32,000 bases of DNA from Mycolicibacterium smegmatis. Lineage in GTDB: Bacteria > Actinomycetota > Actinomycetes > Mycobacteriales > Mycobacteriaceae. The stretch is from NCBI RefSeq assembly GCF_001457595.1, contig NZ_LN831039.1, positions 4,620,001 through 4,652,000 of the forward strand, in the 5' to 3' direction. The notes beneath the pieces were generated by a model, which worked only from the letters and a program-made list of their open reading frames with translations, was not told where the DNA came from and ran no database searches. The position numbers and the translations under genes are program-made. Below are positions 9,871-17,894 of the stretch, in pieces. Within the stretch, counting starts at the first letter, position 1; every line of letters begins with the position of its first letter.

Positions 9871-11106
9871 TCAGTTTCCCTGCCCGCCGCGCCCCCGCGA
9901 GGCGAGGTCCGGCACCGGATCCTTGCCGTTGATGAACCAGTCGCCGAGGATCCGCGCCTTGTAGACGACGGGGTTGTGCGACGCGAGGGTGCGTGCGTTG
10001 CGCCAGTGGCGATCCAGGCCCAGTTCTTCGGAGGTTGCCGAGGCGCCGAGCGCGTCGAACACCTTGGTGGTGGACCGTAGCGCGGCACCGATGATCACCA
10101 ATTGGGCCTGGGTGACCGCGACCTCGGCGTCGATCAGCAGTTGGCGGGCACGGTCCTCGCTGCCCGCGAGCCGGCCCGCCACCACGCGGTCGAGGGTGCG
10201 CGCACTCAGGGCCAGCGCGGCCTCGGCGCCGAAGGCCTCCGCCGAGACCTCGCCGATGACCTGCAGAAGCTGCGCATCATCGGACGGCACCTCCGAAAGC
10301 CCCTGCGGATAGTTGCGTTTCCGCTGCTTCAGCGCCGCCGACCCGTCGCGCTGCACGGCCTTGGTGATGCCGGTGAGCACAGCGAGCATCGCGATCTGAT
10401 AGAAGTGCGGCTGATAGGCGAACCGCTCGACCGCCGGGAACACGTTGCCGCGTTCGGCCCGCACGTTGTCGTAGTGCGCCGAACCGCTCGCCGTGGCGCG
10501 CTGCCCGAAACCCTGCCAGTCGTCGACGAGCTTCACACCCGGATCGTCGGACCGCACCAGCGCGGTCCACAGTTCACCGTCGTCACCGCGCCCGATGACA
10601 TCGAGCCAGTCGGCGTAAAGGCTGCCCGTGGCATAGTATTTCGCGCCCGACACCAGCCAGTGGTCGTCTTGCGCGGTGATGGTGGTGGCGATGTTGGCGA
10701 GCGTGCCGTTGTTGGCCTCTGTCCAGCCACCGCCGACGAACTCACCGGCCAGGAACCGCTTGATCCACGTGTTGTTCTCCTCGGTGACGGGTGCGTTGAG
10801 CCGGTCCTCCACGAACGCCAGATGATTTCGCCAGATGTGCGCGACGTTGGCGTCGGCCTGCCCCAGTTCGGCCAGCAGCTGGAAGGTCTGTTCCAGTGAC
10901 GCGCCGAACCCACCCTGCTCGGCCGGGATGCGCAGCGTGCCGAATCCGGCCTCGTTGAGCCAGCGCACCTGCTCGTGCGGCAGGATCCGGTTGCGCTCAC
11001 GCCCCACATTGCCCTCGGCGATGCGGGCGAAGATCGGCCGGAACACCGACCGCAGTTCGGCGTCGTATCCTGTCGGCCGCTTCAGATAGAAGCTGTCGGT
11101 GCTCAT
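9871..11106 (-). CDS. Acyl-CoA-dehydrogenase-fold flavin oxidoreductase, SfnB/DszC-like (sulfur acquisition type)
   Basis: 411 aa. It shows the ACAD N/M/C-domain pattern without an obvious catalytic-base context. It is the last gene of a translationally coupled minus-strand operon (ATGA overlap with the GNAT gene at 11103-11106) that also contains DszA-type monooxygenases. Confidence 0.75.
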   Translation of the reverse strand: MSTDSFYLKRPTGYDAELRSVFRPIFARIAEGNVGRERNRILPHEQVRWLNEAGFGTLRIPAEQGGFGASLEQTFQLLAELGQADANVAHIWRNHLAFVEDRLNAPVTEENNTWIKRFLAGEFVGGGWTEANNGTLANIATTITAQDDHWLVSGAKYYATGSLYADWLDVIGRGDDGELWTALVRSDDPGVKLVDDWQGFGQRATASGSAHYDNVRAERGNVFPAVERFAYQPHFYQIAMLAVLTGITKAVQRDGSAALKQRKRNYPQGLSEVPSDDAQLLQVIGEVSAEAFGAEAALALSARTLDRVVAGRLAGSEDRARQLLIDAEVAVTQAQLVIIGAALRSTTKVFDALGASATSEELGLDRHWRNARTLASHNPVVYKARILGDWFINGKDPVPDLASRGRGGQGN

Positions 11107-12086
11107 TTCGTACTCCCGTCGGCGTCGATTCGATACGCGTATTCATCGCGGACCGCCACGTATCCCAGTCGCCGGTACAACACGTGCGCGTTGCTGGCGT
11201 TGTTGATGTCGGTACCCAGCGATGCTGCTGTCAGGCCGCGACGCAGCGCCGCCAGCCAGATCTTCTTGAGCAGCAGCTCCCCGGTACCACGCTCCCTTCG
11301 GTCGCGACGCACACCGATGTAGTCGGTGTGTGCGCTGCGCTCCTCGCCCCGATCGGTGAGAACGCTGTACGTCGACCCCAGGACGTATCCGACCACCACG
11401 CCGTCCCGATCGACCGCGGCGAGACTGAAATCCGGGGTGAACGCACGGCTGTGCAGATGGTGCTCCCACCGTTGCGGCGTCTTCGACATGTTGCCGAAGT
11501 GCTCGCTGAACGTGTCGAACTGCAACCGGCGAACCTCTTCGCCGAAACCACCCGAGATCACCTGTGGCCAGGACAGAACCGTGAGCCCGTCGATGTGCTC
11601 GGCGGCAAGTTGGTCGGAATCTTCACCGAGCAGTGACCTGCGGGTGCTGATGAACTGCCGCTCCCGGCGGGCACCTGTCTCGGTGAGTGCCGCGATCGCA
11701 GCGGGCTGATCGGCGCCGATGTACACCCGCAGATAGGAACCGGGCGTCGCGACCCGGTGGAAGTGGTCGACGCTGTCGCCGACGATGTCCCGGACCGCCT
11801 GGATAGGCGCCGAAGGGGCGAACACGAAGGTGCCCAGCACTTCCGGCTCTTCGGTGTCCGGCCCGTGCAATGCCGCATACCCGAGGACGCCGCCGGATTC
11901 ACCGCGCAGGACGACCGCCGAGCCGGGTAACGCCCCGTCGAGTTGTTCGGCGACGTCGCGGGAATCCGCGGCGAACGTCCGCCCACCCAGACCCGTCGTG
12001 GTGGCGAGAAAATCAGCGATGTGGGGATGGTCGTGCGACGTGGCTTGCCGAACCGTCCACGTGCCGACGCCGATGTTCTGGGTCAT
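11103..12086 (-). CDS. Two-domain GNAT family N-acetyltransferase
   Basis: 327 aa. The C-terminal GNAT core is YIGVRRDRRERGTGELLLKKIWLAALRRG (the R/Q-x-x-G-x-G/A acetyl-CoA motif). The N-terminal half is a degenerate GNAT, giving an MshD-like two-domain layout. ATGA overlaps occur at both ends (12083-12086 and 11103-11106). Confidence 0.75.
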   Translation of the reverse strand: MTQNIGVGTWTVRQATSHDHPHIADFLATTTGLGGRTFAADSRDVAEQLDGALPGSAVVLRGESGGVLGYAALHGPDTEEPEVLGTFVFAPSAPIQAVRDIVGDSVDHFHRVATPGSYLRVYIGADQPAAIAALTETGARRERQFISTRRSLLGEDSDQLAAEHIDGLTVLSWPQVISGGFGEEVRRLQFDTFSEHFGNMSKTPQRWEHHLHSRAFTPDFSLAAVDRDGVVVGYVLGSTYSVLTDRGEERSAHTDYIGVRRDRRERGTGELLLKKIWLAALRRGLTAASLGTDINNASNAHVLYRRLGYVAVRDEYAYRIDADGSTK

Positions 12087-16563: not shown

Positions 16564-17894
16564 GACACCGACCTCTGCGGGATGTCCAGGCCCAGATGCG
16601 CACGCAGCGTCGTACCGGTGTACTCGTGGCGGAACAGCCCACGCTTGCGCAGCACCGGCACCACCTGTTCGACGAAGAGTTCGTGCTGGCCCGGCAATCC
16701 GGAATCGCGCAGGACGAACCCGTCGGCGGCCCCGGTGGTGAACCACTCCTCGATGGTGTCGGCGATGCGTTCGGGTGTTCCCACAACCGCGGCACCCCAC
16801 CCGTTCACCGTGCGGTACAGGAACTCCCGCACCGTCGGGTTGCCCTCGCTCGCCAGATGGCGGTAGCCCGCGAGAGCGGTCTGATGGGTTTCGGTGTGCT
16901 CGGGGAACGCCGAGTCCGGGACCGGACCGTCCAGGTCGGCGCCGGTGACATCGACGTCGACCTCCAACAACCATCCGGCCTGGTACCCGGGGCTGAAGTA
17001 TTCGTACTCCTCGCACTCGGCACGACGGGCTTCCTCGTCGGTCGAACCGACGATGTAGCGCAGCGACGGTGTGATCAGCGGTGGCGCGCCACGTCCGAAT
17101 TGCCGTGACTGCTCGTGGATCTGGCCGTAGAACGTCTGTGCGCGCTCGCGGTTGCCGTGGCTGGTGAAGATCACCTCGGCGTGCCTGGCAGCGAAAGCGC
17201 GTCCGGTTTCGGAGGATCCGGCCTGGAAGAGCACCGGCTGCCCCTGCGCTGAACGCGCCGCGCCGATCGGGCCTGCGACGTCGAAGTAGCGTCCGTGATG
17301 GTTGGCCGGCCGGATCCGGCCGACATCGTTGAAGATTCCCGCCGGGCGGTCCTCGACGATGGTGTCCTCACCCCATTCGTCCCACAGCTTGCGGACCACC
17401 TCGAGTGCTTCCTCGGCGATGGCGTAGCGATCGTCGTGGTCGATCACGCCGCGCGCACTGAAATTGTCCGCCGCTGCCCGCGCGAAGCTGGTCACCAGGT
17501 TCCAGCCGGCCCGGCCACCGCTGAGGTGATCGAGCGAGAGAAGCTGGCGCGCCAGGTGATACGGGTGCGCCAGCGTCGCCGATCCCGTCACGACGAGACC
17601 GATGTGCTCGGTCACCGACGACAGCGCCGCAGTGGCGGTGAGCGGTTCGAAGTCCTCGGTGATCTTGTACGCCCACGTCGCAGGCGGGCCATAGTTCAAG
17701 CCGTCGGCGAAGAACAACGCGTCGAAGGTTCCGGCCTCGGCGGTCTGCGCGTAAGCGATCAGCCGGCGTCGCACCCCCGCAGGCGTGTTGTCGGCGGCGG
17801 GATGGCGCCACGGACCGGCTGACCGGGTGTTGCCAAAGGCCAGCAGATGAAGCTCTCTGGTCACTCCCGCGAAGTTACGGCTCACGAATGCCAC
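16560..17894 (-). CDS. FMNH2-dependent LLM-class monooxygenase, NtaA/SnaA/DszA family (paralogue)
   Basis: 444 aa. It carries ..RELHLLAFGNTRSAGPWRHP.. and the shared blocks LDHLSGGRAGWNLVTS and PVLFQAGSSETGRAFAARHAEVIF. An alternative GTG start at 17864 is possible. Confidence 0.85.
   Translation of the reverse strand: MAFVSRNFAGVTRELHLLAFGNTRSAGPWRHPAADNTPAGVRRRLIAYAQTAEAGTFDALFFADGLNYGPPATWAYKITEDFEPLTATAALSSVTEHIGLVVTGSATLAHPYHLARQLLSLDHLSGGRAGWNLVTSFARAAADNFSARGVIDHDDRYAIAEEALEVVRKLWDEWGEDTIVEDRPAGIFNDVGRIRPANHHGRYFDVAGPIGAARSAQGQPVLFQAGSSETGRAFAARHAEVIFTSHGNRERAQTFYGQIHEQSRQFGRGAPPLITPSLRYIVGSTDEEARRAECEEYEYFSPGYQAGWLLEVDVDVTGADLDGPVPDSAFPEHTETHQTALAGYRHLASEGNPTVREFLYRTVNGWGAAVVGTPERIADTIEEWFTTGAADGFVLRDSGLPGQHELFVEQVVPVLRKRGLFRHEYTGTTLRAHLGLDIPQRSVS

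What the first reader, a model, noticed from the sequence alone, without database searches (positions are those of the whole stretch)
9871..17894. Five-gene organosulfur salvage operon (2x DszA-type monooxygenase, APC permease, double GNAT, SfnB/DszC-like oxidoreductase): a candidate S-substituted amino-acid desulfurisation pathway
All five genes are on the minus strand. They are linked by overlapping start/stop codons (GTGA at 16560-16563, ATGA at 12083-12086, ATGA at 11103-11106), apart from the gap now occupied by the IS.

The combination of an amino-acid-type importer, an N-acetyltransferase and NtaA/SnaA/DszA-family monooxygenases is the logic of the Bacillus subtilis S-(2-succino)cysteine (yxeK-yxeL/snaB-yxeP) and S-methylcysteine (ytmI operon cmo/snaA) routes. 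In those routes the amino group is acetylated before flavin-dependent C-S cleavage (recalled knowledge).

No deacetylase or amidohydrolase and no flavin reductase is encoded in the window. The pathway is therefore incomplete here, or uses unlinked partners. The substrate is unknown. I am not aware of such a pathway being characterised in mycobacteria.
Basis: partly seen in the sequence, partly recalled or inferred. Interest (0 to 1): 0.6.

Follow-up and report, generated by a model that had tools for sequence, protein, structure and literature searches.

The report
Mycobacterial sulfur-scavenging acetylate-and-cleave gene cassette
These five Mycolicibacterium smegmatis genes form a conserved, almost sulfur-free gene cassette that looks switched on by sulfur starvation and most likely imports an amine-bearing organosulfur compound, acetylates it and cuts the sulfur out, much as Bacillus does but with different parts; the substrate is still unknown.

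Summary
The five genes and their overlapping junctions are real. One start needs correcting: 17864, a leaderless start. The host is M. smegmatis. The cassette is intact and in the same order in 54 of 69 related loci.

Two independent tests support a sulfur-starvation role. The five proteins hold 8 Cys+Met where 56 are expected. A promoter model trained only on relatives picks out sulfur-poor genes in this genome (11/21 hits, p=1.6e-5), and only at the correct spacing.

The labels need loosening. Both monooxygenases are NtaA/DmoA-family, not DszA: nearest solved relatives are CmoJ and DmoA. The acyl-CoA-dehydrogenase-fold gene fails the SfnB and DszC cut-offs and forms its own clade. The acetyltransferase is a MAB_4324c-type tandem GNAT. 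Its sulfur-poor subfamily always sits beside an importer and nearly always beside flavin oxygenases.

No deacetylase is linked in about 80 loci, so either one acts from elsewhere in the genome or sulfur leaves without the acetylated skeleton. An IS110 sits in the permease ribosome-binding site in the M. smegmatis samples seen.

Verdict: a new variant of the Bacillus acetylate-oxidise-cleave logic built from non-orthologous parts. Substrate and order of steps are inferred.

The parts
17901..17927 (-). Conserved upstream box (T-rich half, GC-rich core, A-rich half); probable activator site of a sulfur-starvation regulon
   Evidence: Scores at least 5 before monooxygenase 1 in 58/62 relatives (the training set) and 15.0 here, where the window was not used for training; enrichment test
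17872..17877 (-). -10 hexamer, 23 nt after the box and 7 nt before the GTG start: a leaderless transcript start (inferred)
16560..17864 (-). Monooxygenase 1, NtaA/DmoA family, 434 aa; nearest solved relative CmoJ/YtnJ (about 43%); 1 Cys, 0 internal Met
15181..16563 (-). Monooxygenase 2, NtaA/DmoA family, 460 aa; nearest solved relatives DmoA and LadA
15071..15180 (-). Ancestral spacer before the permease. Relatives outside the smegmatis/fortuitum group keep an 11-bp-periodic element here (internal promoter or operator?); it is eroded in this copy
13596..15070 (+). IS110-family element (1470 bp; transposase 13845-15050) inserted in the Shine-Dalgarno of the permease, which it regenerates at its left end
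12083..13588 (-). APC-family permease, 501 aa, no internal Cys or Met
   Evidence: family contexts
11103..12086 (-). Tandem GNAT acetyltransferase of MAB_4324c/MshD fold, 327 aa; acetyl-CoA motif only in the C-terminal domain
9871..11106 (-). Acyl-CoA-dehydrogenase-fold (group D) flavin monooxygenase candidate, related to SfnB/MsuC/DszC but in its own clade, 411 aa

Best explanation
The cassette is a sulfur-starvation scavenging unit. SHOWN BY COMPUTATION: the genes are conserved together, are sulfur-poor, and share a promoter motif with other sulfur-acquisition genes. INFERRED: (1) When sulfur is short, an activator (candidate: the ROK-family gene next to mshA, which has a polycysteine leader) turns on a leaderless transcript at 17864. 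(2) The APC permease imports a small organosulfur compound with a free amine and probably an acid group, such as an S-alkylcysteine, methionine sulfoxide/sulfone or an aminoalkyl sulfide/sulfonate. (3) The tandem GNAT N-acetylates it. (4) The acyl-CoA-dehydrogenase-fold enzyme oxidises the sulfur, as DszC and MsuC do, taking the place of CmoO. (5) The two TIM-barrel monooxygenases cleave the C-S bond of different oxidation states or side chains; they work in parallel rather than as an obligate pair. (6) Reduced FMN comes from an unlinked SsuE-type reductase. The end step is open. Either sulfur leaves as a thiol, sulfinate or sulfite and the acetylated skeleton is discarded (about 0.3), or N-acetylcysteine is recovered by an unlinked deacetylase (about 0.25).
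For: 8 Cys+Met in 2128 residues versus 56 expected, p=8e-16. Orthologue means are 0.08-0.54% versus a 2.6% genome median. Sixteen of 18 APC paralogues have 2.4-4.1% and true acyl-CoA dehydrogenases 1.9-4.8%. The promoter model, trained without this genome, precedes sulfur-poor genes in 11/21 hits (p=1.6e-5) and 8/9 at higher score, with no enrichment at six wrong spacings. Hits include ssuC-ssuD, a metN-type ABC, a YeiH-type exporter, other LLM/SfnB-like genes and the encapsulin. Geometry resembles the C. glutamicum CysR/SsuR site (PMC2580772). GNAT relatives down to about 30% identity are sulfur-poor (0-0.6% in the 11 near full-length ones, versus a 1.9% median in the wider family). All those whose context was read lie beside an importer, and most beside LLM and SfnB-like genes. 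The neighbouring SfnB-like genes form one clade, 99/95. The sulfur-poor subfamily has conserved basic residues R36, K202, H253 that the wider family mostly lacks. The GNAT fold is that of amine acetylases such as MshD. Either monooxygenase is missing alone in 7 loci. An SsuE-like, sulfur-poor reductase lies at G000:2932261 and its orthologue is within 10 kb of the cassette in 4 loci. Precedent: the B. subtilis Cmo and Scm routes (PMC10863075, PMC9706529).
Against: No substrate, activity or expression data. No deacetylase is linked in 69 + 12 loci. The similarity to CmoJ (43%) is family background. One metagenomic locus has monooxygenase 1 and the SfnB-like gene with no GNAT nearby (L115). In distant loci the monooxygenase partner changes subfamily (38-42% identity). 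Relatives of the permease at about 30% also serve amine-oxidase and glutamate-synthase-family operons, so its family does not fix the substrate. Related species are not independent samples.
Confidence: 0.55

Rival explanations
1. A sulfur-starvation toolbox rather than one pathway. The genes are co-induced but act on different compounds. The GNAT detoxifies amino-acid analogues that the permease lets in, or amines left after desulfurisation, and is not needed for C-S cleavage.
For: Monooxygenase partners are exchangeable or lost singly. L115 lacks a nearby GNAT. A second, unrelated Eis-type acetyltransferase travels with the neighbouring ssuD-like/Opp-ABC operon. The spacer before the permease carries its own element. 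This genome holds many similar mix-and-match sulfur cassettes.
Against: Permease, GNAT and SfnB-like gene are translationally coupled and stay together in over 60 loci and in two distant loci (L124, L126). The SfnB-like neighbours are one clade.
Confidence: 0.28
2. Recycling of the cell's own thiol conjugates. The MshD-fold GNAT acetylates cysteine-containing fragments of mycothiol or similar S-conjugates, and the oxygenases strip the S-substituent.
For: Tandem-GNAT fold shared with MshD (TM 0.56-0.59; weak TIGR03448 match). A PIG-L family gene follows the closest paralogue of monooxygenase 2, in an operon that carries the same promoter motif.
Against: MshD is a much weaker match than MAB_4324c. 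An importer is always present, which points to an external substrate. The cassette GNAT was found in only 2 of 36 and 2 of 19 sampled genus members, while mycothiol is general in the genus (own knowledge).
Confidence: 0.1
3. Not sulfur metabolism: C-N cleavage of an amine for carbon or nitrogen (NtaA/EmoA-like), or antibiotic acetylation like MAB_4324c.
For: The family also holds NtaA, EmoA, LadA and HcbA1. MAB_4324c mildly acetylates amikacin (PMC10727445). The spacer element resembles a GlnR box (PMC3662644).
Against: Extreme and family-specific sulfur avoidance, and a shared promoter motif with ssu and encapsulin genes. The spacer element did not retrieve recognisable nitrogen-assimilation genes in a genome scan.
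Confidence: 0.05

Closest known systems
B. subtilis S-alkylcysteine salvage (snaA-tcyJKLMN-cmoOIJ-rbfK-sndA; PMC10863075)
   Same: Importer + N-acetyltransferase + S-oxygenase + C-S cleaving TIM-barrel flavin monooxygenase. CmoJ is the nearest solved relative of monooxygenase 1 (E 2e-94).
   Different: APC permease instead of the Tcy ABC system; tandem MAB_4324c-type GNAT; an acyl-CoA-dehydrogenase-fold enzyme where CmoO (an LLM, from memory) stands; a second, DmoA-like monooxygenase; no linked deacetylase; 43% identity to CmoJ is family background.
B. subtilis S-(2-succino)cysteine route (yxeKLMNOPQ / scm; PMC9706529, PMC12757645)
   Same: Acetylate-then-cleave logic. Deacetylases there are redundant and one is unlinked, so a deacetylase acting from elsewhere has precedent.
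   Different: The published definition (at least three of YxeK, L, MNO, P, Q clustered) is not met on the evidence here: no polar-amino-acid ABC system, no YxeP-type M20 gene, no YxeQ seen. YxeK could not be compared directly.
Pseudomonas sfn/msu route (SfnG, MsuC, MsuD, uncharacterised SfnAB; PMC8234197) and Rhodococcus DszABC
   Same: Group C C-S cleaving plus group D S-oxygenating flavin monooxygenases under sulfur starvation. A Burkholderia msuE-sfnG-sfnB operon carries a sulfur-poor APC permease of the same broad family.
   Different: No acetyltransferase in those systems. The group D gene here fails the SfnB (262 vs 431 bits) and DszC (128 vs 850) cut-offs and branches apart.
MAB_4324c tandem GNAT (PDB 7Q3A)
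   Same: Best sequence and fold match (TM 0.74); shared C-terminal acetyl-CoA site.
   Different: About 20% identity. MAB_4324c is WhiB7-controlled (PMC10727445). The subfamily here is sulfur-poor, has its own basic residues and sits in sulfur cassettes.
C. glutamicum CysR/SsuR operator (PMC2580772)
   Same: About 23-bp imperfect inverted repeat with T-rich and A-rich halves just upstream of the -35 position; ROK-family candidate regulator present.
   Different: Different genus. The regulator assignment here is inference only; no binding data.

Membership tests
NtaA/DmoA family FMN-dependent monooxygenase (TIGR03860) | Score above the curated cut-off of 279.7 bits | tested here: met
   440.5 and 506.7 bits
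DszA / CmoJ / DmoA orthologue | Similarity clearly above family background, plus the cognate operon | tested here: not met
   DszA ranks 7th and 5th among solved relatives. CmoJ about 43%, equal to 628 plasmid records whose best reach 43-45%. Monooxygenase 2 has paralogues at 50-55% in this genome.
SfnB (TIGR04022) / DszC (NF043015) | Score above the curated cut-off; same clade | tested here: not met
   261.7 vs 430.9 and 127.5 vs 850; separate clade
MAB_4324c/MshD-type tandem GNAT | Two GNAT domains, acetyl-CoA motif in the C-terminal one | tested here: met
   Model and Foldseek; R264, G267, N296, Y304 conserved
MshD mycothiol synthase | TIGR03448 cut-off 163 | tested here: not met
   27 bits
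B. subtilis-type acetylate-cleave-deacetylate cysteine salvage | Importer, N-acetyltransferase and C-S monooxygenase clustered | tested here: met
   (by family, not by orthology)
B. subtilis-type acetylate-cleave-deacetylate cysteine salvage | Clustered N-acetylcysteine deacetylase (M20 family) | tested here: not met
   None in the window or in 69 + 12 loci, using this genome's M20, PIG-L and one amidohydrolase as queries
B. subtilis-type acetylate-cleave-deacetylate cysteine salvage | Acetylation of an S-substituted cysteine and cleavage of the N-acetyl form | not testable with these tools
   Needs enzyme assays
Sulfur-starvation regulon member | Cys/Met-poor products and a shared regulatory site | tested here: met
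Sulfur-starvation regulon member | Measured induction under sulfur limitation | not testable with these tools
   No data found for these genes in the papers searched
GlnR regulon (spacer element) | Motif retrieves known nitrogen-assimilation genes | tested here: inconclusive
   Resembles the published 17-bp consensus, but the genome scan did not return recognisable GlnR targets

The most novel reading that the evidence does not exclude
A deacetylase-free 'acetylate and strip' route. A dedicated sulfur-poor tandem GNAT caps the amine, an undescribed group D monooxygenase clade oxidises the sulfur, the LLMs release it, and the acetylated skeleton is thrown away. It would be part of an undescribed mycobacterial sulfur-starvation regulon run by the ROK-family gene beside mshA, itself gated by a polycysteine leader.
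Probability: 0.25. Interest if true: 0.72.

Novelty: new variant of a known kind. Interest (0 to 1): 0.5.

Why it matters
How soil mycobacteria get sulfur from organic compounds is poorly mapped, and no paper in the searched library describes these genes. If the reading holds, the Bacillus acetylate-oxidise-cleave strategy was rebuilt from different parts in actinobacteria. It would give a first physiological role to a branch of the MAB_4324c-type tandem GNATs and to an unnamed SfnB-like clade. The promoter motif gives a concrete, testable sulfur-starvation regulon and a candidate regulator. A practical point: M. smegmatis samples carry an IS110 in the permease ribosome-binding site, so IS-free species are safer test hosts.

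Tried and rejected
Literature search by presumed mc2 155 locus tags (MSMEG_4547-4552; numbering inferred from gene order and memory) gave one passing mention of MSMEG_4547 as an acyl-CoA dehydrogenase. Transcription-start and cysteine-limitation supplements held nothing on these genes. The Kouzuma sfn paper was not held.

The generic sigma-70 scan found no promoter. The upstream box alone, without the -10 spacing, was not specific.

An obligate heterodimer of the two monooxygenases is disfavoured because either is lost alone; no complex was folded. A GlnR site in the spacer was not supported by the genome scan.

The binding protein of the linked Opp-type transporter gave no ligand hint: best match 25% identity, bound to aminoserine. 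Atlas and plasmid searches for the permease gave only generic APC names.

dN/dS between two IS-bearing strains (0.05-0.33) cannot show selection after the insertion, because the IS is identical while the flanks differ by 4-6%.
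Full report
Observation. The host is Mycolicibacterium smegmatis: the GNAT is 98% identical to a protein so named. Monooxygenase 1 most likely starts at GTG 17864. 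A -10 hexamer conserved in relatives ends 7 nt before it, and an independent gene call in another strain gives 434 aa. None of the genome's M20, PIG-L, amidohydrolase or flavin-reductase matches lies in the window.

What the parts are. Both monooxygenases pass the NtaA/DmoA family cut-off. The nearest solved relative of the first is B. subtilis CmoJ/YtnJ; of the second, DmoA and LadA. DszA ranks lower for both. The CmoJ match is about 43%, and hundreds of plasmid-borne family members match almost as well, the best at 43-45%, so this is not orthology. The last gene scores below the SfnB and DszC cut-offs and forms a separate clade with the SfnB-like genes found next to this GNAT family (99/95). 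The GNAT folds as two GNAT domains (pLDDT 90) and best matches MAB_4324c, then a Sphaerobacter protein, MshD and clavulanate Orf14. Only its C-terminal domain keeps the acetyl-CoA motif. Distant relatives of the permease occur beside an amine oxidase, beside a glutamate-synthase-family gene, and in a Burkholderia msuE-sfnG-sfnB operon, where it too is sulfur-poor.

Conservation. Of 69 loci found with the GNAT, 54 keep all five genes in order, at median identities of 62-83%. Several of the others are contig ends. Monooxygenase 2 alone is missing in five loci and monooxygenase 1 alone in two, so they are not an obligate pair. Four loci add a DszC-like gene between permease and GNAT. The cassette is patchy: 2 of 36 and 2 of 19 sampled genus members. 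A profile search reached relatives at 30-40% identity. All contexts read show an APC or Opp-type importer, most show LLM genes, four show the same SfnB-like clade, and one shows an O-acetylhomoserine sulfhydrylase. The LLM partner there is often another subfamily. The stable core is therefore importer + GNAT + SfnB-like enzyme, with exchangeable cleaving enzymes.

Evidence for a sulfur role, line 1: composition. Sulfur-assimilation enzymes are known to avoid Cys and Met (Baudouin-Cornu 2001, as cited in PMC10551891). The five proteins hold 8 such residues in 2128, against 56 expected (p=8e-16). Orthologue means are 0.08-0.54% versus a 2.6% genome median. This is not a family bias: 16 of 18 APC paralogues have 2.4-4.1%, true acyl-CoA dehydrogenases 1.9-4.8%, and the wider tandem-GNAT family 1.9% against 0-0.6% in this subfamily.

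Line 2: promoter. Relatives share a 27-bp box 23-24 nt before a -10 hexamer. A model trained without this genome scores the window's own site at 15. Across the genome it precedes sulfur-poor genes in 11 of 21 hits (p=1.6e-5; background 13%) and 8 of 9 at higher score, while six wrong spacings show no enrichment. Hits include the ssuC-ssuD operon, a metN-type ABC system, a YeiH-type exporter, other LLM and SfnB-like genes, and the encapsulin gene in this window. The encapsulin carries it in 9 of 13 relatives, lepA in 0 of 41. The shape and position resemble the CysR/SsuR sites of C. glutamicum (PMC2580772). A ROK-family gene upstream of mshA has a polycysteine leader of the kind shown to sense cysteine in this species (bioRxiv 10.1101/834739). 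It is the natural candidate activator; this is inference.

The missing partners. An SsuE-like, sulfur-poor FMN reductase lies elsewhere in the genome, and its orthologue is near the cassette in four loci. No deacetylase was found near any of 69 + 12 loci with this genome's M20, PIG-L and amidohydrolase queries. B. subtilis has three redundant deacetylases (PMC12757645), so one acting from elsewhere is possible. A PIG-L gene ends an operon that carries the same promoter motif, and an amidohydrolase follows another LLM/SfnB-like cassette. Equally, the steady absence fits a route in which sulfur leaves as thiol, sulfinate or sulfite and the acetylated skeleton is discarded.

The IS and the spacer. 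The 1470-bp IS110 sits in the permease Shine-Dalgarno and regenerates it. Its two other full copies in the genome also sit in Shine-Dalgarno sequences. The same site is occupied in another M. smegmatis strain and two read sets, and the element is identical although the flanks differ by 4-6%. It was not seen in the 55 loci of other species where the spacer could be aligned. Whether it is polar is unknown; the downstream genes are intact. The ancestral 100-150 bp spacer holds a conserved element with 11-bp period in about half of the relatives, eroded in the smegmatis/fortuitum group. It resembles a GlnR box (PMC3662644), but a genome scan did not support that. The permease-GNAT-SfnB-like trio may thus have had its own control.

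Mechanism and odds. Most likely (0.55): import, N-acetylation, S-oxygenation, then C-S cleavage, as in the B. subtilis Cmo route (PMC10863075) but with non-orthologous parts. Basic residues R36, K202 and H253, largely specific to this GNAT subfamily, fit an acidic acceptor such as an amino acid or aminosulfonate (positions not checked in 3D). Rivals: a co-induced toolbox with a detoxifying GNAT (0.28), recycling of own thiol conjugates (0.10), no sulfur role (0.05). The substrate cannot be named from sequence.

Verdict. A real, conserved and apparently undescribed cassette. It works like known acetylate-and-cleave salvage routes but fails their membership tests on orthology and on the linked deacetylase. 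New variant of a known kind; interest 0.5.

Noticed in passing
window 8351 (junction between the cysteine desulfurase and the methyltransferase); L120:13739-20984: This strain lacks an operon of more than 7 kb (ssuD-like LLM, Eis-type acetyltransferase, Opp-type ABC system) that another M. smegmatis strain and about 17 relatives carry here. The same Opp-type transporter accompanies the tandem GNAT in distant taxa.
   Followed up: partly
window 5666-5721 (+): The encapsulin promoter carries the same upstream box and -10 spacing; kept in 9 of 13 relatives.
   Followed up: partly
window 5522-5600 (-): Short ORF ending in three cysteines upstream of the TQXA-like gene; fits the published Ms4536A leader.
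   Followed up: partly
G000:C1:1046424-1047911 (L132): ROK-family regulator upstream of mshA with a polycysteine leaderless ORF; candidate activator of the sulfur motif.
   Followed up: partly
window 13596-15070; G000:C1:2842701 and 1922368: All three full copies of this IS110 sit in Shine-Dalgarno sequences 5-7 nt before a start codon. An antisense frame of over 470 codons ends exactly at the regenerated site. The element is identical in a strain with 4-6% diverged flanks, suggesting independent insertion or conversion.
   Followed up: partly
window 8948-9862 (+): Convergent Zn-type/quinone oxidoreductase next to the cassette in 28 loci and fairly sulfur-poor (1.1%); could reduce an aldehyde product, untested.
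   Followed up: no
G000:C1:2194520-2197640 (L093): MFS transporter + DmoA-like monooxygenase + PIG-L family gene under the same promoter motif; candidate unlinked deacetylase.
   Followed up: partly
G000:C1:2965403-2974728, 4476826-4485897, 4693606-4701937: Three more sulfur-poor LLM cassettes with ABC transporters in this genome (two with SfnB-like genes); one is followed by an amidohydrolase.
   Followed up: no
G000:C1:3789678-3790274 (L129): A Cys/Met-free lectin-like gene (weak putidacin-family match) scores third for the sulfur promoter motif; unexplained.
   Followed up: no
L124:1-11282: A locus whose binding protein lacks the lipoprotein cysteine and which has a glutathione transferase neighbour (possibly Gram-negative) holds Eis-type GNAT, Opp ABC, APC, DszC-like gene, tandem GNAT and SfnB-like gene together.
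   Followed up: partly
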